From: Escherichia phage UPEC06
Sequence record: MW250786
Direction: 5' to 3' (one strand)
DNA: 64,000 bases
In this document: positions 38,162 through 44,567 of the stretch, piece after piece
Layout: each line of letters starts with the position of its first letter
Numbering within the stretch: the stretch's first letter is position 1
The notes under the pieces: model-generated
The model's input: the letters and a program-made list of their open reading frames with translations, nothing else
Told to the model about the DNA's origin: nothing
The model's database searches: none
Made by a program: the position numbers and the translations under genes

Positions 38162-38508
38162 TTTACCTCCATCATAAATACTTTAACTTTTCGTACCTCT
38201 AATCTTACTTTATTAGAGCCTTGAAGTCTATTTCTTTTTTCAATTGCGTCATTAATGTCGCCATAGAAGTAGTGATCCTTACCTATTGTTGGTATTCCAT
38301 TGCCGCCTTGCATAGCCAGTGTATACATTTCTTTTCCACCTTGCAACCCTTTTGATACTTTTTCTTCAAAATATTTATTGAATTGGGTTGGTGAAGTGTC
38401 AATTTCTACATCATCTTCCCATCCCATAACTTTATCCCAAAAACGGTCAATCTTGTCAAGAACTTTGTTACTAATCTTTTTAATCTTCTTCAACATAATC
38501 TTCCCCAT
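38158..38508 (-). CDS. hypothetical protein
   Basis: 116-aa basic ORF. Confidence 0.4.
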   Translation of the reverse strand: MGKIMLKKIKKISNKVLDKIDRFWDKVMGWEDDVEIDTSPTQFNKYFEEKVSKGLQGGKEMYTLAMQGGNGIPTIGKDHYFYGDINDAIEKRNRLQGSNKVRLEVRKVKVFMMEVK

Positions 38509-38968
38509 TATTTATTTGGATACCGAAACGATTTTCATTTGAAGAAAAGAAACCCATCTTCATCCGATCAATCTCGTGTTTCATAACTTCCTGCATCGTT
38601 AATTTAAGGATTTCTTTGTTTAATTTTGGCTTAACTTCACGGAGCTTGTCAAGAAGTTTTTCCATTTCTTCTTTTACTTTTTCTTCCTCATTTTCTATCT
38701 CTAATTGGTCCATTGCATCTTTACAAACACAGCAATGGCCCACAACTCTTAAAATATGATTTTGTATAGGTAATGCTTTTCTTCCACAATACCCACAAAC
38801 AATAGACCCACCGGAGTTTCGAGCATCCACTGTCAATGTAGGTTTGGCCCCTTCTGCCTGAGAATTCCAAGTCTTTTTGCCTTGATAATCAAACATAAAG
38901 AATTCGTAGGATCTTTCATCAACGTGATCTTCGAGCATATGTAAAGTTCTTGTATTGAAATGTTTCAT
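38480..38968 (-). CDS. hypothetical Cys-rich protein (possible zinc-binding)
   Basis: 162 aa with CGYCGRK...HCCVCK cluster; first gene of - strand block at divergent promoter region. Confidence 0.45.
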   Translation of the reverse strand: MKHFNTRTLHMLEDHVDERSYEFFMFDYQGKKTWNSQAEGAKPTLTVDARNSGGSIVCGYCGRKALPIQNHILRVVGHCCVCKDAMDQLEIENEEEKVKEEMEKLLDKLREVKPKLNKEILKLTMQEVMKHEIDRMKMGFFSSNENRFGIQINNGEDYVEED

Positions 38969-39004
38969 TTTTAAACCCTCGTTGTTTGTATGAGCTAACT
39001 ATAC

Positions 39005-39018
39005 GAGAACTTGAGAGG
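39005..39018. promoter_or_regulatory. GAGAACTTGAGAGG motif copy in divergent promoter region
   Basis: Same 14-mer as the iteron-like repeats at 47.94-48.11 kb; lies between divergent genes at 38968 and 39089. Confidence 0.4.
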
Positions 39019-39088
39019 AAGATCAATACTTGATTTGTATTTTATTTTCATTATACTGTGCACATCTAAAACAAGAAGGGGATAAGAA

Positions 39089-39652
39089 ATGAGTCAAGAT
39101 AAAGAGTTAGCCATTGCGATATCCGTAGCTGCTTCTGCCCATGTTGACCAAGTAGATAAAGGGGGGAATATCTATATTCTTCATCCTTTGCAGGTGATGC
39201 AAACATTGCAGCAAAAGGGAAGGGAAGATTTAATGGCAGCAGGAGTTTTGCATGATGTGATTGAAGATACTGAAATCACTATGGAACACCTCTTTAAAAA
39301 GGGGATTTCAGAAAGAACCTTAGTGATTGTCGATGCAGTGACAAAGAAACGTAAGCAATCTTCATCTGATTACCTAGAGGGGATTTTAGAGAGTGAGGGT
39401 GCTTGTCATGTTAAGCTTGCGGATCTTAAACACAACTTAGATATTCTGCGAACTTGTAGCACCACAGAAAAAGACTTGCAACGGGTCAGGAAGTATGTAA
39501 CAATGCACTTGTTGATTACGGAGATGGTTGATTGGTATGAAAGTATCGGAAGGTATCTCGATTATTGTGATTCTTTTGCCTATTGTAGCTATCTCGACGA
39601 ACGTAAAGAATTTGTTCAGAAACTTATTAAAAAATGGAAGGAGTTTAAATGA
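39089..39652 (+). CDS. HD-domain phosphohydrolase, SpoT/RelA-hydrolase-like (putative (p)ppGpp hydrolase)
   Basis: Signature AAGVLHDVIEDT with upstream His; 187 aa consistent with a stand-alone hydrolase domain. Confidence 0.55.
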   Translation: MSQDKELAIAISVAASAHVDQVDKGGNIYILHPLQVMQTLQQKGREDLMAAGVLHDVIEDTEITMEHLFKKGISERTLVIVDAVTKKRKQSSSDYLEGILESEGACHVKLADLKHNLDILRTCSTTEKDLQRVRKYVTMHLLITEMVDWYESIGRYLDYCDSFAYCSYLDERKEFVQKLIKKWKEFK

Positions 39653-40182
39653 AAAAGGTATTAAGTATCGAACCTTTCACAACAACATACTTTGACGATT
39701 TGGAACGTTACGGTGATTATGGGGTACAAGACGCTGATGGTTGGAAAGAATTCCCTGAAGAAACAAAAGGCCACATTACAAAGTTAGGTTGTAAGATTAA
39801 TGGATCTGAACCAAAAGGTGTTTACACCATGTTTTCTTTCCTTGAAGCTATGAATCCTACATACAAGGGGGATAGACAATTTGGTTTTTCTTTTGCATCA
39901 TTCCTTACTTGTAGTTGTGGTCATGGTGGTTGTGCGGGCTATCATGATAATGTGGTTATTCGACGTAAAAAGAATACCGTGATGGTCATGGGTAAAAAGG
40001 AAGATGGTTATGACGAAGGTGTTGTATTGACAGGTGAATCTGTTGTATACTTCGATAAAAAGCAGTGGGACGGTGTTCTAGAACACTACCTTAAACTCTT
40101 CAAAGAAAGTCCTGATGGTGTTTTTGAAGATGCGGGTTTTATGTTTACTGGTCGTTGGGGGACTAAAAATTTTTCAAAATAA
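39649..40182 (+). CDS. hypothetical protein
   Basis: 177-aa ORF, ATGA overlap with upstream gene. Confidence 0.5.
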   Translation: MKKVLSIEPFTTTYFDDLERYGDYGVQDADGWKEFPEETKGHITKLGCKINGSEPKGVYTMFSFLEAMNPTYKGDRQFGFSFASFLTCSCGHGGCAGYHDNVVIRRKKNTVMVMGKKEDGYDEGVVLTGESVVYFDKKQWDGVLEHYLKLFKESPDGVFEDAGFMFTGRWGTKNFSK

Positions 40183-40252
40183 TTTAAAAACTTGTTGACT
40201 TAAGAAATAGAAAAGATATACTTATCACATCAAAAACAAGAGGAGATATAAA

Positions 40253-41482
40253 ATGCAAGAAACTTATCAACGTATGGACCAAACCATGTTCAAAAAACGT
40301 ATCAGTGTTCGTGATATGGAATCACTGATTCGCCTGGGGGCTTCCATCGGAAAGACCGTATTCTTTTTTGGTGGTGCTGGTCTTGGTAAGTCTGAAAAAG
40401 TAAAACAGATCGCTGATTCCATGTTCCCACATCGTGTAGGTAATAACCTTTGTGATGTTCGTCTGTCGGATAAAGAGCCACAAGATATCGCAGGTATTCC
40501 GATTCCGATCTCTTATCCAGATCCGAAAACTGGTAAAGAAGTCACTCGTACCGTATACGCAGTTCCAAACTTTTGGCCTACTGATCCTGATTGGGAAGGT
40601 ATCGTGTTCCTGGATGAACTGCCAAATGCACCATTGGGCACTCAGCACTCTGCATATCAGGTTATTCTTGATCACGTTGCAGGTGAGCATAAGTTCCCGA
40701 AAGGTACTGTGTTTGTAGGTGCAGGTAACCGTGATACTGATGGAGCAGGGACTACTTCTATGCCTGGTCCATTGGTTAACCGTATGATCATTGCAGAAGT
40801 TGATTATAATCTGGATGTGTGGATCGAAGACTATGCGATTCCGTTCCGTCTGCACCCGAACATTATTGGTTTCTTGAAGCAGTTTCCAGAGCATTTCTAT
40901 ACTGGTGACGTAGAAAACCGAAGTACTCCGGTTTATTCATCTCCTCGTCAATGGAAAACAGCATCTGACATTCTGTACAAGTATGATGCGGGTGAGATTA
41001 ATGAATTTATCGCAGAGGTTGCTCTTGCAGGTACAGTTGGTGAAGGCTTGGAAGTACAGATCCTTGCTTATCACTTACGTGCTAAAGAACTTCCACCTAT
41101 TGAAGATATCTTCAGTGGTGCAGTGGAAGAACATAAACTTGATCGCAGCAAGAACGACCTTGTTTACGTACTGGCACAAACTGGCCTTCGTCGCATGGAA
41201 GATGAAGTGATGGATAATGATATGCCGGATGATAAGTTCCTTGAACGTGCAGGTAACTTCCTTACGTTCATGTACAATAACTATTATGCGAACAACAAGG
41301 ATACGATGATTGCTTTGATCTTGGGCGTGTTCCGTGGTCCAAACGATAAGCCATCTATCTTGACTGTTAACCCGAAACGTCAGAAAATGATTCCGCTTAT
41401 GCGTAAGAGTTGCCCGACTGTTTCTGCCGCAGTTATGGAATACATGACTCGCTATGGTCAACTGATTAAAGAATTCGAATAA
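40253..41482 (+). CDS. MoxR-like AAA+ ATPase (CobS/RavA-type)
   Basis: Walker A FFGGAGLGKS, Walker B IVFLDELPNA, sensor-like VFVGAGNR; RBS AGAGGAG. Confidence 0.65.
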   Translation: MQETYQRMDQTMFKKRISVRDMESLIRLGASIGKTVFFFGGAGLGKSEKVKQIADSMFPHRVGNNLCDVRLSDKEPQDIAGIPIPISYPDPKTGKEVTRTVYAVPNFWPTDPDWEGIVFLDELPNAPLGTQHSAYQVILDHVAGEHKFPKGTVFVGAGNRDTDGAGTTSMPGPLVNRMIIAEVDYNLDVWIEDYAIPFRLHPNIIGFLKQFPEHFYTGDVENRSTPVYSSPRQWKTASDILYKYDAGEINEFIAEVALAGTVGEGLEVQILAYHLRAKELPPIEDIFSGAVEEHKLDRSKNDLVYVLAQTGLRRMEDEVMDNDMPDDKFLERAGNFLTFMYNNYYANNKDTMIALILGVFRGPNDKPSILTVNPKRQKMIPLMRKSCPTVSAAVMEYMTRYGQLIKEFE

Positions 41483-41562
41483 TCTCTTGACAACGAAAAA
41501 CAGTTAACTTAATATAAGGGCATCTCGAAAGAGGTGTCCTTTTTTAATTTGGAGAAAATGAA

Positions 41563-43095
41563 ATGGCAAAACTGACGATTGAAGAAAGTAACATGATTGA
41601 AATGCAAGTCTCTGAAGCGGAACGTATCATTGAGGCTGCTAGTCTACAACTGATGCGTTTTAAACCCTTCTACGGGGTGATGCTTTCGTCTATGCCTGTT
41701 AAAAAGGCAACTGAGTGGTGCAGTACAATGGCGACTGATGGACGCAACCTATACTATCATCCAGAATTCATTGCAGGTATGACAGAAGAACGTAAAAAAT
41801 TAGTACTCGATCGACTTTCCAAATCTGAGTCCGATCCTAAAAAGCTTAAAGAGGCAACTGAATTTATTAATGTTTTTTATCGACGGAAGACCGCTCGTGA
41901 AGTTGCACTTATTCTTGAGCATGAATGTGATCATGTGATCTCTGATCACGCCTCTCGCGGTAAAGGATTTAATCATGAACTTTACAACATTGCAGCGGAT
42001 CATCGTATCAATACAACGGCTGTGCTTATTCACCAGAAAGGGGATGAGTTAGGTAAAGCCTGGTTCCCTGCCGGAGAGAGAACGGTATTTGATAAGAATG
42101 CTGAATTTGGATTTATGGCCTGGTCTTATTGTGACTTCCGATTCAAAGATATGTATACAGAGCAAATCTATGAAATCTTAAATAAAGAGCAGGACGATAA
42201 AGAAAAATCCAAAGGGGAAGGTTCTGGAAGTGGAAAAGGAGATGGTGAAGAAGGTGATCAAGGCCGTAAAGGTGTTGATCAGCACATGGACCCAAATGGT
42301 GATCCAGAAGATTCAGAAGATGATAGTATCGAAGATGCACTCGGAATCGACCGTAAAGCGAAACCTAAGCAAACAGCAGAGGAACGCCAATATAACGATG
42401 GGGTTATGCGTCGAGCCATTGAGAATGCCGTACAGGCAGCAGGAAGCGGTGCACCGGAAGATGCACGACGTTTTGTAGAGGCGGCAGGTAAACCAAAGAT
42501 TAACTATCTTCGTTTGTTGCGTAAAACTATTGAACGTCTGTTCAAAGATGATGTATCATATCGTCGTTTGTCACGCCGTAGTCACTCGTTAACTCGGACT
42601 CTCCGTAGCTCAGGTTACTTGTCTGGACGACAAACAATTGGTTTACCATCAAAGAATAAACAGAAGACTATCCGTGCAGGTGTTTTCTTTGATGTGTCGG
42701 GATCATTTAACGATGAACTGTTAAGACCAACAATGCGTGAGATTCGTGGATTGTGTAATCTTTACGACGAGTTTGAGGTCACGATGGCTTGCTGGTCAAC
42801 AAAGGTTGGTAACATTGAAACGTATACGAAGAAGAATGTGAATGAGATTGCTAACTATAAGATCAAGACCACATTTGGTACGGATGTTTCTTGTGTGTTT
42901 GAAGCATTAGATGAAATGAAAGACCCTATGGATCAGATCATCATCTATACTGACGGTTACTTTGCTGATGTATCCCAAAAGAAAGATTGGGCCAAAAAGT
43001 ATGGTAAGAATGTTCTTTGGATCATCCTGGGTCGTGGGTCTTCGTTCAATCCACCTTTTGGTAAAGCCATTGATTTTGACAAGTATCTTAAATAA
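41563..43095 (+). CDS. vWA-domain protein with N-terminal HExxH metallopeptidase-like motif (DUF2201-like MoxR partner)
   Basis: HExxH in ALILEHECDHVISDH; MIDAS-type DxSxS in VFFDVSGSF; acidic Gly/Glu/Asp-rich linker; directly downstream of AAA+ gene. Confidence 0.6.
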   Translation: MAKLTIEESNMIEMQVSEAERIIEAASLQLMRFKPFYGVMLSSMPVKKATEWCSTMATDGRNLYYHPEFIAGMTEERKKLVLDRLSKSESDPKKLKEATEFINVFYRRKTAREVALILEHECDHVISDHASRGKGFNHELYNIAADHRINTTAVLIHQKGDELGKAWFPAGERTVFDKNAEFGFMAWSYCDFRFKDMYTEQIYEILNKEQDDKEKSKGEGSGSGKGDGEEGDQGRKGVDQHMDPNGDPEDSEDDSIEDALGIDRKAKPKQTAEERQYNDGVMRRAIENAVQAAGSGAPEDARRFVEAAGKPKINYLRLLRKTIERLFKDDVSYRRLSRRSHSLTRTLRSSGYLSGRQTIGLPSKNKQKTIRAGVFFDVSGSFNDELLRPTMREIRGLCNLYDEFEVTMACWSTKVGNIETYTKKNVNEIANYKIKTTFGTDVSCVFEALDEMKDPMDQIIIYTDGYFADVSQKKDWAKKYGKNVLWIILGRGSSFNPPFGKAIDFDKYLK

Positions 43096-43104
43096 GGGGG
43101 ATCT

Positions 43105-43476
43105 TTGAGCGAGTATACTTACAAGTTATCAGTTGGTAGGCGTGGTGTAGTTATGACTATCAACATGATTAATGAAAGTGCGGAGGCTGTAAAATGGTGG
43201 GCCTCCACCTTTAACGGGAAAGGTTTTACTTTATCTCGCCATAAGATTGGATCAGGAAAGCCGATAGATCTTGTAAAGGAAGACACTTTCCTGTATCCTG
43301 ATCGTATTGCTGATGAAGATATTGATTTCCTGTCTGCTACGGTTGGTAGTCTGTTAGATGAGGAGCCAGATATTGTAAGGTTGCTCTCTTTGCTTACCGC
43401 AATGTGGTCAGCAGGTCATGATGAGGAAAGTATGCATACGATGGTAAGGAATACGTTGAGACGTTGGTCTAAGTAA
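43105..43476 (+). CDS. hypothetical protein
   Basis: 123-aa ORF; track start is TTG, alternative in-frame ATG at ~43153. Confidence 0.4.
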   Translation: MSEYTYKLSVGRRGVVMTINMINESAEAVKWWASTFNGKGFTLSRHKIGSGKPIDLVKEDTFLYPDRIADEDIDFLSATVGSLLDEEPDIVRLLSLLTAMWSAGHDEESMHTMVRNTLRRWSK

Positions 43477-43796
43477 CAACATTTCCTTTATGCCCATTTA
43501 GGCATACAATACTATATTAGATGATAAACCCCTCAACCTGCTCGGTTGCTTCGACGGGGTTTATATATCTATTAAAAAATTAACCACACTCACATTCGTT
43601 CGGTACTTAATTTTTTAAGTCACCACAAAATTGTGTTGACACCACAATCAAACAGGTGTAGAGTTAACAAGAGAAGGAAAGTTAATTGGATAAGTTTTAC
43701 ATATACTGTCTAACATTGGGATTGATCTTCATGATTGTTGGATCAGTGGGTAAAGTTTTACTCAATAGTTTTGGAATTTATTAAGAGGAGATCGTA

Positions 43797-44039
43797 ATGA
43801 GAGTACGTCAACATCGTGGTACATTGATCGAAAGTTTGAAAACTGTTAAACAGATTGAAGGTACAAAACAAGCTCTTGTGGATCATATCAACAAAGAGTT
43901 AGGTAAACCGTTTAACTTCTCTGTTGATTCGATCAGCATTGTGGAAAAAGGAGTTGATGAGCGTATCAACTGGAACAACCATCTGATCCTGATTGATGGA
44001 TTTGGTGTATTTGGTTATTGTGATCAACATCCTGTTTAA
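43797..44039 (+). CDS. hypothetical protein
   Basis: 80-aa ORF with AGGAG RBS. Confidence 0.45.
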   Translation: MRVRQHRGTLIESLKTVKQIEGTKQALVDHINKELGKPFNFSVDSISIVEKGVDERINWNNHLILIDGFGVFGYCDQHPV

Positions 44040-44159
44040 GAGGTGGTTATGGCTATTAAATGGTGGTTGTTTGTAGTTCCTGCAAATGATAATGCAGGCG
44101 GTGATGGTAAACGTGCAGTCGCACAAACCTATGTCTATGGTCGTCATTAAGGAGTTATT

Positions 44160-44567
44160 ATGGATGCTTTTTTGAGTATTGTGTTTGCACTGACAGTGGT
44201 TGATTGGGTATTTATCGGTATCTATCTACTCTGTATTCCTTTTGTGATCTGGTTTTACATTGACCTTTTGGCAGGTACTGGCAAAGTAACTGGAATGGAC
44301 TACTTCATGTTTGTTGTTGTGATTCTCATGGGGCCTTTAGCCTTGTTGTCTTTCCTTATTGCAAACATTGTGGTAAGAGGGGGCGCTATCAAACAAACTG
44401 TTCTTTTAAAGGTGAGTAGAACTGATATTGGTAAGAAGATCATTGTCTGGAACATTACACGTAAGCTTAAAAAGACCAATACCAAATGGGTTAATCCTTT
44501 AGAACGAGCCGTTCAGAAACGTCACAAAGTCTTATTGGAGAGAAAACATGGGAAACGAAATCCGTAA
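44160..44567 (+). CDS. membrane protein
   Basis: 135 aa, 3 hydrophobic helices then basic tail. Confidence 0.45.
   Translation: MDAFLSIVFALTVVDWVFIGIYLLCIPFVIWFYIDLLAGTGKVTGMDYFMFVVVILMGPLALLSFLIANIVVRGGAIKQTVLLKVSRTDIGKKIIVWNITRKLKKTNTKWVNPLERAVQKRHKVLLERKHGKRNP

What the first reader, a model, noticed from the sequence alone, without database searches (positions are those of the whole stretch)
40253..43095. Phage-encoded MoxR-like AAA+ ATPase paired with a vWA protein carrying an HExxH motif
Adjacent co-directional genes encode a 409-aa AAA+ protein (Walker A GGAGLGKS, Walker B VFLDELPNA) and a 510-aa protein with N-terminal HExxH (LEHECDHVISDH), an acidic low-complexity linker, and a C-terminal vWA-like domain with MIDAS-type DVSGS. 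MoxR/vWA pairs are established functional units in bacteria (RavA-ViaA, CobS-CobT, NorQ-NorD), and the HExxH-plus-vWA arrangement matches the DUF2201-type partner. Its role in a lytic phage is not established; candidates include host takeover, assembly chaperoning or conflict-system mimicry. It sits next to the HD-domain hydrolase gene.
Basis: partly seen in the sequence, partly recalled or inferred. Interest (0 to 1): 0.65.

Follow-up and report, generated by a model that had tools for sequence, protein, structure and literature searches.

The report
Phage MoxR ATPase with peptidase-vWA partner
Two neighbouring phage genes encode an ATP-driven remodelling motor and its adaptor protein carrying a putative zinc-protease domain; this pair is already known from phage N4 and many other mobile elements, and most likely helps the phage overcome host defences rather than build virions.

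Summary
ORF1 (40253-41482, 409 aa) is a divergent MoxR/dynein-clade AAA+ ATPase. ORF2 (41563-43095, 510 aa) is a DUF2201 protein: HExxH domain, disordered acidic linker, vWA/MIDAS domain. All catalytic motifs are conserved in homologues, and both genes are under strong purifying selection.

The pair is not new. It is the Septuagintavirus (Vequintavirinae) version of the N4 gp24-gp25 core pair. The same architecture was described in jumbo phages (Iyer et al. 2021). It also occurs in uncultured marine phages, conjugative Burkholderiales plasmids and Synechocystis pSYSA. In 78 of 80 diverse viral loci the ATPase lies just upstream of the DUF2201 gene.

Functional evidence comes from a 2025 transposon-sequencing preprint on the Vequintavirus Bas54. 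Both orthologues are dispensable on E. coli K-12. The ATPase is required against the uncharacterised defence system DS-28. DUF2201 mutants are also depleted, more weakly, in the DS-28 host. This, together with the plasmid copies, argues against the published virion-assembly proposal.

The best reading is a mobile-element counter-defence or host-interaction remodelling machine. Its substrate and any protease activity are unknown. It is a new member of a known kind, of moderate interest.

The parts
40253..41482 (+). ORF1, 409 aa: divergent MoxR/dynein-clade AAA+ ATPase (PHROG 1297). It is a homologue of N4 gp24 and an orthologue of Bas54 bas54_0063.
   Evidence: ORF. PHROG 1297 E = 9.5e-100. BLASTP against N4 gp24 E = 8e-26. 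36.7% full-length identity to bas54_0063, E = 2e-89. AF2 model pLDDT 88.7, best PDB matches NorQ, CbbQ2 and dynein. dN/dS 0.029.
40370..40393 (+). Walker A, GGAGLGKS (aa 40-47)
   Evidence: G40, G43, G45, K46 and S47 are invariant in 28 homologues. Coordinates checked.
40601..40618 (+). Walker B, IVFLDE (aa 117-122)
   Evidence: D121 and E122 are invariant. Checked.
40721..40732 (+). Sensor-1 region, AGNR (aa 157-160)
   Evidence: A157, G158, N159 and R160 are invariant. The motif lies at the end of strand 152-158 in the model.
40778..40783 (+). N176-R177, the putative arginine finger (corresponds to the 'DRF' position of MoxR proteins; this assignment is an inference)
   Evidence: Invariant. 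Checked.
40940..40948 (+). SPR (aa 230-232), putative sensor-2 arginine at the start of the lid helix
   Evidence: P231 and R232 are invariant. Helix 231-245 in the model.
41483..41562 (+). 80-nt gap between the genes. It holds a promoter-like TTGACA-17-TAATAT (41487-41515) and an 11-bp hairpin with a T-run (41516-41551). In phages A7_1 and A5-4 a homing endonuclease gene is inserted here.
   Evidence: The number of consensus sites in the region is not above the shuffled expectation, so function is not shown.
41563..43095 (+). ORF2, 510 aa: DUF2201 protein (zincin-like HExxH domain, disordered acidic linker, helical region, vWA/MIDAS domain). It is a homologue of N4 gp25 and an orthologue of Bas54 bas54_0055.
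   Evidence: Pfam PF13203 E = 4.8e-25 and PF09967 E = 8.6e-8. hhalign against N4 gp25 gives probability 99.95%. 37.9% identity to bas54_0055, E = 1e-103. dN/dS 0.068.
41920..41949 (+). HECDHVISDH = the HExxHxxxxH putative zinc site (aa 120-129)
   Evidence: H120 and H129 are invariant; E121 and H124 are conserved in at least 90% of sequences. The motif is present in 80 of 80 viral homologues and in the plasmid homologues.
42178..42357 (+). Acidic, Gly-rich disordered linker (aa 206-265). It contains a nearly invariant D-x-H (DQH, nt 42277-42285).
   Evidence: pLDDT below 50 at residues 219-250. H241 is conserved in at least 90% of sequences. Sequence checked.
42658..43095 (+). C-terminal vWA domain (about aa 366-510). 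The MIDAS residues are DVSGS (nt 42691-42705), T440 (nt 42880-42882) and D464 (nt 42952-42954).
39089..40182 (+). Upstream context in the same rightward gene block: an HD_4 (SpoT-like) phosphohydrolase gene (39089-39652) and a phrog_8242 gene (39649-40182). They are syntenic with the pair in Certrevirus POP15. They are not shown to belong to the module.
43105..43476 (+). Downstream gene (123 aa, phrog_12385). It also follows the pair in A7_1 and POP15. Function unknown; not shown to belong to the module.

Best explanation
SHOWN. ORF1 is an AAA+ ATPase of the MoxR/dynein (helix-2-insert) clade with a complete set of catalytic residues. ORF2 is a DUF2201 protein with a conserved HExxHxxxxH zinc-site motif, a disordered acidic linker and a vWA domain with a complete MIDAS site. 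The two genes form a conserved pair in the order ATPase then DUF2201. The pair is homologous to N4 gp24-gp25 and occurs in several phage lineages and on plasmids. In the related phage Bas54 both orthologues are dispensable on E. coli K-12. The Bas54 ATPase is required to overcome the host defence system DS-28, and DUF2201 mutants are significantly depleted in the host that carries DS-28.

INFERRED. The pair is a two-component, ATP-driven protein-remodelling machine that mobile elements use early or mid-infection against host factors, most likely immune proteins. By analogy with NorQ-NorD, CbbQ-CbbO and Rea1-MIDAS, the proposed steps are as follows. The vWA domain uses its MIDAS metal to grip an acidic residue of a target, or docks the adaptor onto the motor. 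The hexameric ATPase pulls on or remodels the bound protein. The tethered HExxH domain may then cleave it.

Which protein is the target in this phage is unknown. The DS-28 phenotype in Bas54 also needs a small protein, bas54_0140, that this phage clade lacks. The specificity may therefore differ here.
For: Identity of the parts:
- Pfam DUF2201_N and DUF2201 above threshold.
- Invariant Walker A/B, AGNR, NR and SPR in the ATPase; invariant HExxH...H and DxSGS...T...D in the partner.
- ATPase model pLDDT 88.7, with best matches NorQ, CbbQ2, CHU_0153, dynein and Rea1.

Coupling:
- 80 of 80 IMG/VR loci with DUF2201 carry the ATPase within 7 kb.
- In 78 of 80 it is upstream on the same strand, with a median gap of 100 nt. 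The sample spans 24 clusters at 70% identity.
- The same order holds in marine phage contigs at 25% identity, in N4, in pSYSA and in Burkholderia, Cupriavidus and Arcobacter plasmids.

Function:
- HIDEN-SEQ preprint: clean knockout of bas54_0063 (MoxR ATPase) makes Bas54 sensitive to cloned DS-28.
- On K-12, bas54_0063 is hit at 60 of 64 TA sites and bas54_0055 at 81 of 86; both are classed non-essential.
- In CFE311, bas54_0063 has log2FC -7.23 (q = 0) and bas54_0055 has log2FC -2.20 (q = 0.009). The flanking genes 0054, 0056, 0062 and 0064 are unaffected.
- Orthology of the window genes to these two is shown.

Context:
- The pair lies in the non-structural rightward block that starts at a divergent strand switch, together with an HD_4 ppGpp-hydrolase-like gene.
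- N4 gp24/25 are middle genes.
- The plasmid copies lie beside PRTRC and T4SS genes, or within a toxin-antitoxin/DUF262 island.
Against: - The functional data come from a 37%-identical orthologue in another genus, from a single preprint, against one uncharacterised defence system.
- The DUF2201 orthologue shows only a modest depletion (log2FC -2.2). It was one of 27 significant genes in a clinical isolate and was not followed up by knockout, so its involvement is suggestive only.
- In Vequintavirus proper the two genes sit in divergent operons 3.6 kb apart. This allows partly independent roles.
- bas54_0140, which is co-required against DS-28, is confined to Vequintavirus and absent from this clade.
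- A pair that is core to all N4-like phages and conserved across very different hosts seems too universal for a counter-measure to one rare system. The true target may be a common host factor.
- No PADLOC hit.
- Protease activity, zinc binding, hexamer formation and physical interaction of the two proteins are all untested.
- No structural relative was found for the HExxH domain.
Confidence: 0.55

Rival explanations
1. Virion-assembly chaperone with proteolytic processing. Iyer et al. 2021 proposed this for the jumbo-phage pair, by analogy with the MoxR-vWA proteins p618/p892 of Acidianus two-tailed virus. In this reading the pair folds or assembles structural proteins and trims them.
For: A published proposal exists for the same domain architecture in group 2.2 jumbo phages, and there is the ATV precedent. 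MoxR-vWA systems are generally maturation chaperones. Deleting the region that contains a MoxR/vWA pair in phage 0305phi8-36 left it viable but reduced growth.
Against: Both orthologues tolerate transposon insertions at about 94% of TA sites and are classed non-essential in Bas54 on K-12, whereas its structural genes and prohead protease are essential. The phenotype is host-dependent. Homologous pairs with intact motifs occur on conjugative and non-mobilizable plasmids, which make no virions. The genes lie outside the structural module, and in N4 they are middle genes.
Confidence: 0.1
2. Metal-cofactor insertion or enzyme reactivation, as for NorQ-NorD, CbbQ-CbbO, CoxD-CoxE and CobS-CobT. In this reading the pair matures or reactivates a metalloenzyme of phage or host, for example one in nucleotide metabolism.
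For: The closest solved structures are NorQ/NorD and CbbQ2. Some homologues carry a weak VWA_CoxE signal. Neighbours in N4 and in marine phages include dCTP deaminase and thymidylate synthase.
Against: The invariant HExxHxxxxH domain has no counterpart in NorD, CbbO or CobT. There are no Pfam or NCBIfam hits to CobS, CobT, CbbQ_C or NorD families. No enzyme gene is conserved alongside the pair across the phage and plasmid loci I inspected, where the flanking genes differ from locus to locus. The requirement in Bas54 depends on a cloned defence system rather than on growth conditions.
Confidence: 0.1
3. General host take-over. The machine degrades or remodels an abundant host protein, for example a transcription, translation or envelope factor, to favour phage development. 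The DS-28 phenotype would then be an indirect consequence.
For: The pair is very broadly conserved: core in N4-like phages and present in Vequintavirinae, jumbo phages and marine phages. It is early or middle in position, beside a ppGpp-hydrolase-like HD gene and, in rV5 and N4, near rIIA/rIIB.
Against: No fitness cost of loss on K-12 in Bas54. Presence on plasmids that do not shut off the host.
Confidence: 0.15
4. The two proteins are not obligate partners in Vequintavirinae. The ATPase alone, with other phage adaptors such as bas54_0140, provides counter-defence, while the DUF2201 protein has a separate role.
For: The phenotypes differ greatly in strength (log2FC -7.2 against -2.2). The genes are split into divergent operons in rV5-type phages. 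A hairpin with a T-run and a promoter-like site lie between the genes here. The ATPase family is found in 814 phage records but DUF2201 in only 323.
Against: In all 80 DUF2201 loci sampled the ATPase is nearby, and it is usually adjacent. The pair is retained together from phages to plasmids at 22-30% identity. Part of the 814 versus 323 difference may be a sensitivity effect, because the DUF2201 query is more divergent: N4 gp25 against ORF2 gives BLASTP E = 3e-5, whereas gp24 against ORF1 gives 7e-25.
Confidence: 0.1

Closest known systems
Phage N4 gp24 (AAA ATPase) - gp25 (vWFA), core gene pair of N4-like phages (Schitoviridae)
   Same: Both proteins are homologous: gp24 at 28% identity, E = 8e-26; gp25 at hhalign probability 99.95%, and itself DUF2201_N + DUF2201 at E = 3e-87 and 1e-46. 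The gene order is the same, and HExxHxxxxH, DxSGS and the Walker motifs are kept.
   Different: The window proteins are longer, at 409 and 510 aa against 352 and 380. ORF2 has an insert of about 40 aa before the HExxH helix and a long acidic linker. ORF1 has a longer C-terminal helical region. I found no function reported for gp24/gp25.
Bas54 (phage MaxBurger) bas54_0063 MoxR ATPase and bas54_0055 putative metallopeptidase (Vequintavirus)
   Same: Full-length orthologues at 36.7% and 37.9% identity, in the same subfamily, Vequintavirinae.
   Different: In Bas54 the genes are 3.6 kb apart in divergent operons. The anti-DS-28 phenotype also needs bas54_0140, which this clade lacks. No experiment exists for the window phage.
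MoxR-vWA pair with N-terminal metallopeptidase in group 2.2 jumbo phages (Iyer et al. 2021; ASV44729.1 / ASV44728.2)
   Same: The same domain architecture is described. Rak2-like jumbo phages (K64-1, PBECO4, CBB, EC.P1) carry adjacent homologues of both window proteins.
   Different: I did not compare the two cited accessions directly. Those authors proposed virion assembly, which the Bas54 and plasmid data do not favour.
NorQ-NorD and CbbQ-CbbO (MoxR CGN subfamily with vWA partners)
   Same: These are the best structural matches for both proteins. They share the AAA+ hexamer plus vWA/MIDAS adaptor logic.
   Different: Sequence identity is only 14-17%. NorD and CbbO have no HExxH domain. ORF1 has an extra C-terminal helical region of about 130 aa. 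Their function is enzyme maturation or reactivation, not conflict.
Rea1/midasin MIDAS domain (eukaryotic ribosome biogenesis)
   Same: This is the top Foldseek hit for the vWA domain, and Rea1 is among the AAA+ hits. It is a precedent for a MIDAS site gripping an acidic residue of a substrate that the motor then removes (from established knowledge).
   Different: In Rea1 the motor and MIDAS domain are in a single giant polypeptide, and there is no peptidase.
Plasmid pairs: Synechocystis pSYSA sll7029/sll7028 and the Burkholderiales ATPase - unknown - VWA-like cassette
   Same: The same two families (HMM E = 1e-38 to 1e-65 for the ATPase, about 1e-47 for DUF2201) with all motifs kept. NCBI names sll7029 a 'MoxR family ATPase'.
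   Different: The Burkholderiales and Arcobacter versions have a conserved third gene of about 300 aa between the two, which has no phage relative. They lie beside PRTRC/T4SS genes or toxin-antitoxin genes.
   Same: The general MoxR-type ATPase plus vWA partner principle.
   Different: No family-level hits to these. None of them carries the HExxH domain. RavA has a LARA domain (established knowledge) that is absent here.

Membership tests
MoxR-type AAA+ ATPase (helix-2-insert clade) | Walker A, Walker B, sensor-1, arginine finger and sensor-2 residues | tested here: met
   G40/K46/S47, D121/E122, N159/R160, R177 and R232 are invariant in 28 homologues. They are present in 76-79 of 80 viral homologues.
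MoxR-type AAA+ ATPase (helix-2-insert clade) | Beta-hairpin insert after helix 2 and a pre-sensor-1 hairpin | tested here: met
   In the AF2 model, strands 82-89 and 96-103 lie between helix 76-80 and the Walker B strand 116-121. Short strands 142-147 precede strand 152-158. This was read from the DSSP string of a predicted model, not from an experimental structure.
MoxR-type AAA+ ATPase (helix-2-insert clade) | Closest structural relatives are MoxR, dynein or midasin members | tested here: met
   The top Foldseek hits are NorQ (9qh4, 9qh8, 9qhg), CbbQ2 (6l1q), dynein, CHU_0153 (2r44), McrB and Rea1, with E = 5e-8 to 1e-5 and target-normalised TM up to 0.64.
MoxR-type AAA+ ATPase (helix-2-insert clade) | Match to curated MoxR profiles (Pfam AAA_3, AAA_5, bpMoxR; NCBIfam) above threshold | tested here: not met
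   ORF1 has no Pfam or NCBIfam hit at E up to 1. Among 28 homologues, bpMoxR hits 10 and AAA_5 hits 4; for the two homologues scanned individually (N4 gp24 and the slur16 ATPase), AAA_5 and bpMoxR score below their gathering cut-offs. This is therefore a divergent branch, not a member of a curated MoxR subfamily.
MoxR-type AAA+ ATPase (helix-2-insert clade) | Genomic pairing with a vWA/MIDAS protein | tested here: met
   Adjacent here. In 78 of 80 viral loci the ATPase is upstream on the same strand.
MoxR-type AAA+ ATPase (helix-2-insert clade) | Hexamer formation and ATP hydrolysis | not testable with these tools
   Needs biochemistry or multimer modelling.
DUF2201 family (PF13203 + PF09967; COG 'predicted metal-dependent peptidase') | Both Pfam domains above gathering score, in the order N-terminal peptidase-like then C-terminal vWA-like | tested here: met
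   PF13203 scores 89.1 bits (cut-off 23.2) and PF09967 scores 32.8 bits (cut-off 26.4).
DUF2201 family (PF13203 + PF09967; COG 'predicted metal-dependent peptidase') | Conserved HExxH zinc-binding motif | tested here: met
   H120 and H129 are invariant; E121 and H124 are conserved in at least 90% of sequences. HExxHxxxxH is present in 80 of 80 viral homologues, and in N4 gp25 and the plasmid homologues. One distant homologue (P0101) lacks it.
DUF2201 family (PF13203 + PF09967; COG 'predicted metal-dependent peptidase') | vWA fold with a complete MIDAS (DxSxS...T...D) | tested here: met
DUF2201 family (PF13203 + PF09967; COG 'predicted metal-dependent peptidase') | Peptidase activity and a zincin fold of the N-terminal domain | tested here: inconclusive
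   The only matches are weak ones confined to the HExxH helix of M48 peptidases (E = 0.03 and 0.72). No solved-structure match to the N-terminal domain appeared among the top 50-60 listed hits. Activity cannot be tested here.
N4 gp24-gp25-type phage pair | Homology of both proteins, with the gene order ATPase then DUF2201 | tested here: met
N4 gp24-gp25-type phage pair | Middle-class expression | not tested
   Known for N4 only, from the literature. There are no transcript data for this phage. The position in a non-structural block is consistent with it.
Anti-defence factor (anti-DS-28) as in Bas54 | Orthology to bas54_0063 | tested here: met
   36.7% identity over 403 columns, E = 2e-89. It is the only hit in the window. 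BASEL Vequintavirus genomes show one such gene in a syntenic position.
Anti-defence factor (anti-DS-28) as in Bas54 | Presence of the co-required partner bas54_0140 | tested here: not met
   No homologue in the window. There is none outside the genus Vequintavirus among 50,697 phage records, which include the close relatives A7_1, A5-4, A73, W70 and LTH01.
Anti-defence factor (anti-DS-28) as in Bas54 | Conditional requirement in the presence of a defence system | not testable with these tools
   Needs phage genetics.
Cobaltochelatase CobS-CobT / RavA-ViaA | Family-specific domains (CobS_N, CobT, CobT_C; RavA LARA; ViaA) | tested here: not met
   No such Pfam or NCBIfam hits.

The most novel reading that the evidence does not exclude
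The ATPase-DUF2201 pair could be a general, mobile-element-borne 'targeted demolition' machine. In this reading an AAA+ unfoldase, a MIDAS adaptor and a tethered zinc protease together capture, unfold and cleave host immune (or other restricting) proteins. Small lineage-specific proteins such as bas54_0140 would supply target specificity. The conserved D-x-H in the acidic linker could act as an autoinhibitory plug of the zinc site that the motor pulls out. The module would be shared by N4-like, rV5-like, Rak2-like and marine phages and by conjugative plasmids, and would give the 20-year-old orphan core genes N4 gp24/gp25 a function.
Probability: 0.3. Interest if true: 0.75.

Novelty: new member of a known kind. 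Interest (0 to 1): 0.38.

Why it matters
The pair is one of the few non-structural, non-replication modules shared by very different virulent phages: all N4-like phages, Vequintavirinae, Rak2-like jumbo phages and abundant marine phages. It is also shared with conjugative plasmids. Even so, it is annotated as 'hypothetical', or wrongly as 'HNH endonuclease', 'anti-sigma factor' or 'DNA repair ATPase'.

If it is an ATP-driven counter-defence protease, it would be a mechanistically new class of anti-defence system, because most known ones are small stoichiometric inhibitors or modifying enzymes. It would also be relevant to the host range of therapeutic phages, since Vequintavirinae and N4-like phages are used in phage therapy.

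For this particular window, the value is correct annotation and a clean, adjacent two-gene version that is convenient for genetics.

Tried and rejected
- PADLOC gave only a DolB hit at E = 0.018, which is not meaningful, and NCBIfam gave no hits.
- PDB sequence searches with the single proteins and with the A2 profile found nothing significant. They gave only low-complexity linker matches and a match to the HExxH helix of an M48 peptidase at E = 0.72.
- A literature search for 'DUF2201' returned three unrelated papers. The Septuagintavirus paper does not mention these genes.
- I could not find what DS-28 is beyond 'small uncharacterised family', plasmid-borne in E. coli.
- I tried to test host specificity with the CFE303 comparison, but the two resampling sheets held as text carry identical CFE311 numbers.
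- I tested whether the plasmid middle gene, the rV5 'anti-sigma factor' (bas54_0056) or bas54_0140 have relatives next to the pair in the window or in the 80 viral loci. None do.
- Promoter and terminator consensus counts in 38400-44300 are not above the shuffled expectation, so no operon structure is claimed.
- I did not run the genome contigs or metagenome scans, so chromosomal distribution outside phages and plasmids was not surveyed.

Full report
**Observation**

All quoted motifs are present at the expected residues. These are Walker A GGAGLGKS, Walker B IVFLDE, HECDHVISDH, DVSGS, and an acidic Gly/Asp/Glu-rich linker at aa 206-265.

They are real genes under selection. Against phage A7_1, dN/dS is 0.029 for ORF1 and 0.068 for ORF2.

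The window belongs to a Vequintavirinae myovirus of the recently described Septuagintavirus clade. The closest records are vB_EcoM-LTH01, A7_1, A5-4, A73 and W70 at 93-97% nucleotide identity. In those records both genes are annotated 'hypothetical protein', and the clade's description paper does not mention them.

**ORF2**

- Pfam assigns DUF2201_N ('putative metallopeptidase domain', E = 4.8e-25) and DUF2201 ('VWA-like domain', E = 8.6e-8). Both are above the curated thresholds.
- In an alignment of 30 homologues reaching down to 25% identity, H120, H129, R132, D146 and E200 are invariant. E121 and H124 are conserved in at least 90% of sequences.
- The full MIDAS set is invariant: D377, S379, G380, S381, T440 and D464.
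- Among 80 further viral homologues, HExxHxxxxH is present in 80 and DxSGS in 79.
- The AlphaFold model (pLDDT 79.7) has a confident helical N-terminal domain, a disordered linker (residues 219-250) and a C-terminal alpha/beta domain.
- Foldseek ranks Rea1-MIDAS and NorD vWA first. These are the vWA domains that work with MoxR/dynein-type motors.
- No solved structure matches the HExxH domain among the listed hits. Only the HExxH helix shows weak similarity to M48 peptidases. Protease activity therefore remains an inference from the motif.

**ORF1**

- No Pfam or NCBIfam model matches ORF1. It matches PHROG 1297 'ATPase' at E = 9.5e-100.
- In 28 homologues the invariant residues are Walker A, Walker B (D121, E122), AGNR (157-160), N176-R177 and P231-R232. 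These correspond to sensor 1, the arginine finger and sensor 2 of MoxR-type AAA+ proteins. That correspondence is my inference from the known motif order.
- The model is confident (pLDDT 88.7, pTM 0.81). It shows a beta-hairpin insert after helix 2 and a short pre-sensor-1 hairpin.
- Its best PDB matches are NorQ, CbbQ2, dynein AAA modules, the MoxR protein CHU_0153, McrB and Rea1.
- Homologues give weak hits, most often to bpMoxR and AAA_5; where individual scores were listed (N4 gp24 and the slur16 ATPase) they are below the gathering cut-offs.
- I therefore call ORF1 a divergent member of the MoxR/dynein clade, not a member of any curated MoxR subfamily.
- About 130 C-terminal residues form an extra helical region with no counterpart in NorQ or CbbQ.

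**The pair is conserved and widespread**

- N4 gp24 aligns to ORF1 at 28% identity (E = 8e-26).
- N4 gp25 is a textbook DUF2201_N + DUF2201 protein (E = 3e-87 and 1e-46). It aligns to the ORF2 family profile with 99.95% probability.
- gp24 and gp25 are among the 14 core genes of N4-like phages. Both have unknown function, and they are middle genes in N4.
- In the phage collection, ORF2 relatives occur in 323 records and ORF1 relatives in 814. These include all Vequintavirinae genera, Rak2-like jumbo phages (adjacent, for example in CBB and EC.P1), Aeromonas phages and N4-like phages.
- In 80 IMG/VR loci found with the DUF2201 profile (24 clusters at 70% identity, 6 at 50%), every locus has the ATPase within 7 kb.
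- In 78 of those 80 it is upstream on the same strand, with a median gap of 100 nt.
- Marine contigs at about 25% identity show the same order in phage-like contexts.
- The two exceptions are rV5/PVP-SE1-type genomes. In Vequintavirus proper the ATPase lies in a leftward operon next to rIIA/rIIB, and the DUF2201 gene lies 3.6 kb away in the divergent rightward operon.

**The pair is also on plasmids**

- 74 plasmid records carry a DUF2201 homologue, and 30 of them are typed as conjugative.
- In Burkholderia cenocepacia and Cupriavidus necator plasmids, the cassette is ATPase, an unknown protein of about 300 aa, then DUF2201. It lies downstream of the PRTRC system in both plasmids and, in the B. 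cenocepacia plasmid, immediately upstream of the type IV secretion genes.
- An Arcobacter plasmid has the same three-gene order.
- In Synechocystis pSYSA, sll7029 ('MoxR family ATPase') overlaps sll7028. The pair lies among toxin-antitoxin modules and a DUF262 gene.
- Profile searches confirm that these are the same two families and that all motifs are intact.

**Prior descriptions**

Iyer et al. [quoted passage not shown] They proposed a role in virion assembly with proteolytic processing, by analogy with the tail-development proteins of Acidianus two-tailed virus. Some GenBank records already label the Vequintavirus genes 'MoxR ATPase' and 'putative metallopeptidase'.

**Functional evidence**

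The HIDEN-SEQ preprint (Humolli et al. 2025) mapped gene essentiality in Bas54, which is phage MaxBurger (MZ501093.1), a Vequintavirus.

- The window proteins are full-length orthologues of bas54_0063 (36.7% identity, E = 2e-89) and bas54_0055 (37.9%, E = 1e-103).
- On E. coli K-12 both genes are classed non-essential, with insertions at 60 of 64 and 81 of 86 TA sites.
- In the uropathogenic strain CFE311, bas54_0063 loses all insertions (log2FC -7.23, q = 0).
- In the same strain, bas54_0055 is significantly depleted (log2FC -2.20, q = 0.009). The genes flanking each are unaffected.
- The authors confirmed with clean knockouts that bas54_0063 and a 99-aa protein, bas54_0140, are required to overcome DS-28. 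DS-28 is a two-gene DefenseFinder candidate from CFE311 that they cloned into K-12.
- They did not discuss bas54_0055. The link between its depletion and the ATPase phenotype is my reading of their supplementary table.

There are caveats:

- The sheet is titled CFE303, but its command line names the 311 sample, and the following sheet has identical numbers. I could not check specificity against a second host.
- 27 genes are significant in CFE311.
- DS-28 is uncharacterised.
- bas54_0140 is confined to the genus Vequintavirus and is absent from this phage's clade.

**Interpretation**

The identity and pairing of the parts are secure. For function, three lines of evidence point away from virion assembly and towards a host-interaction role:

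- The genes are dispensable on a laboratory host but conditionally required against a host defence system.
- They sit in a non-structural early or middle block beside a ppGpp-hydrolase-like gene.
- Intact homologous pairs exist on plasmids, which make no virions.

That role is most likely counter-defence, and it would be shared by mobile elements.

The mechanism I propose is inferred from NorQ-NorD, CbbQ-CbbO and Rea1. The MIDAS site binds an acidic residue of a target, or docks the adaptor to the ring. The AAA+ hexamer remodels the target. The tethered HExxH domain may cleave it.

The very broad conservation of the pair, and the much weaker phenotype of the DUF2201 gene in Bas54, leave room for other readings. 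The target could be a general host factor. The ATPase could work with alternative adaptors. Less likely, the pair could mature an enzyme. I put about 0.55 on the counter-defence or host-interaction machine, about 0.1 on virion assembly, and smaller weights on the other readings.

**Novelty and interest**

This is a new, correctly recognised member of a known kind. The architecture, its presence in phages and a first phenotype are all in the literature. A specialist would not be surprised.

What remains open is the substrate, whether the HExxH domain is an active protease, and why the module is core to such different mobile elements. Those questions are interesting, and the adjacent two-gene arrangement here is convenient for testing them. 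Hence a moderate score.

Noticed in passing
window 41483-41562; L001 8559-9053 (phage A7_1): In A7_1 and A5-4 an HNH homing endonuclease gene sits exactly in the gap between the two genes. Against A7_1, dS is 0.07 for ORF1 but 0.36 for ORF2. This suggests a recombination or co-conversion boundary at the homing site.
   Followed up: partly
window 41487-41551: The gap holds a promoter-like TTGACA-17-TAATAT followed directly by an 11-bp G+C-containing hairpin and a T-run. This may be a terminator, an attenuator or an RNA-stabilising element between the ATPase and DUF2201 genes. Site counts in the region are not above chance.
   Followed up: partly
window 42277-42285 (ORF2 aa 239-241, DQH): A D-x-H motif with H241 conserved in at least 90% of sequences lies in the middle of the otherwise variable, disordered acidic linker of DUF2201 proteins. 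It could be an extra metal ligand or an autoinhibitory plug. That is speculation.
   Followed up: no
window 39089-39652: An HD_4 (SpoT-like) phosphohydrolase is the first gene of the rightward block. Its homologue in POP15 is annotated as guanosine-3',5'-bis(diphosphate) 3'-pyrophosphohydrolase. It is possibly a phage ppGpp hydrolase acting on the host stringent response.
   Followed up: partly
window about 38968-39089: There is a divergent strand switch. Genes are leftward from about 10 kb to 38968 and rightward from 39089. It coincides with the minimum of cumulative GC skew, between about 36 and 40 kb.
   Followed up: no
L097 8013-8942; L100 8055-8942; L099 3941-4933: Plasmid versions of the module carry a conserved third gene (295-330 aa, with no Pfam family above threshold) between the ATPase and DUF2201 genes. 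The Burkholderia and Cupriavidus proteins are 56% identical to each other.
   Followed up: partly
L004, L005, L006, L008, L009 (rV5-type phages): In Vequintavirus proper the pair is split. The ATPase sits in the operon with rIIA/rIIB (as in N4, where rIIA/rIIB lie about 4 kb downstream of gp25). DUF2201 follows a 325-aa protein annotated as 'anti-sigma factor' in the divergent operon, and that protein has no Pfam support.
   Followed up: partly
phage records: Annotation errors are propagating. PHROG 1314 labels the DUF2201 family 'HNH endonuclease', and several GenBank records repeat it (PBES 02, SPLA5a, KNP2, V18, CBB, 7t3). Other labels include 'DNA repair ATPase' (GEC_vB_MG, for the DUF2201 protein), 'ribosomal protein uS19' (SSBI34, for the ATPase) and 'gp25-like protein' (K64-1).
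   Followed up: no
HIDEN-SEQ preprint, Extended Data Table 8: The resampling sheet titled 'K-12_vs_CFE303' contains a command line for the CFE311 sample, and the next sheet has identical numbers. The CFE303 table therefore appears to be missing or mislabelled in the text copy.
   Followed up: partly
L010 4211-4510 (bas54_0140): The 99-aa Bas54 protein that is co-required against DS-28 is restricted to the genus Vequintavirus (118 records, all at least 80% identical). It has no Pfam family. It may be a lineage-specific specificity factor for the ATPase.
   Followed up: partly
HIDEN-SEQ table, Bas54 genes 0068, 0150-0152, 0132-0134: Other Bas54 genes are strongly depleted in CFE311. These include a DNA helicase (bas54_0068, log2FC -6.3), which lies five genes downstream of the ATPase in the same operon, and three small unknown genes (log2FC -6.2 to -7.2).
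   Followed up: no
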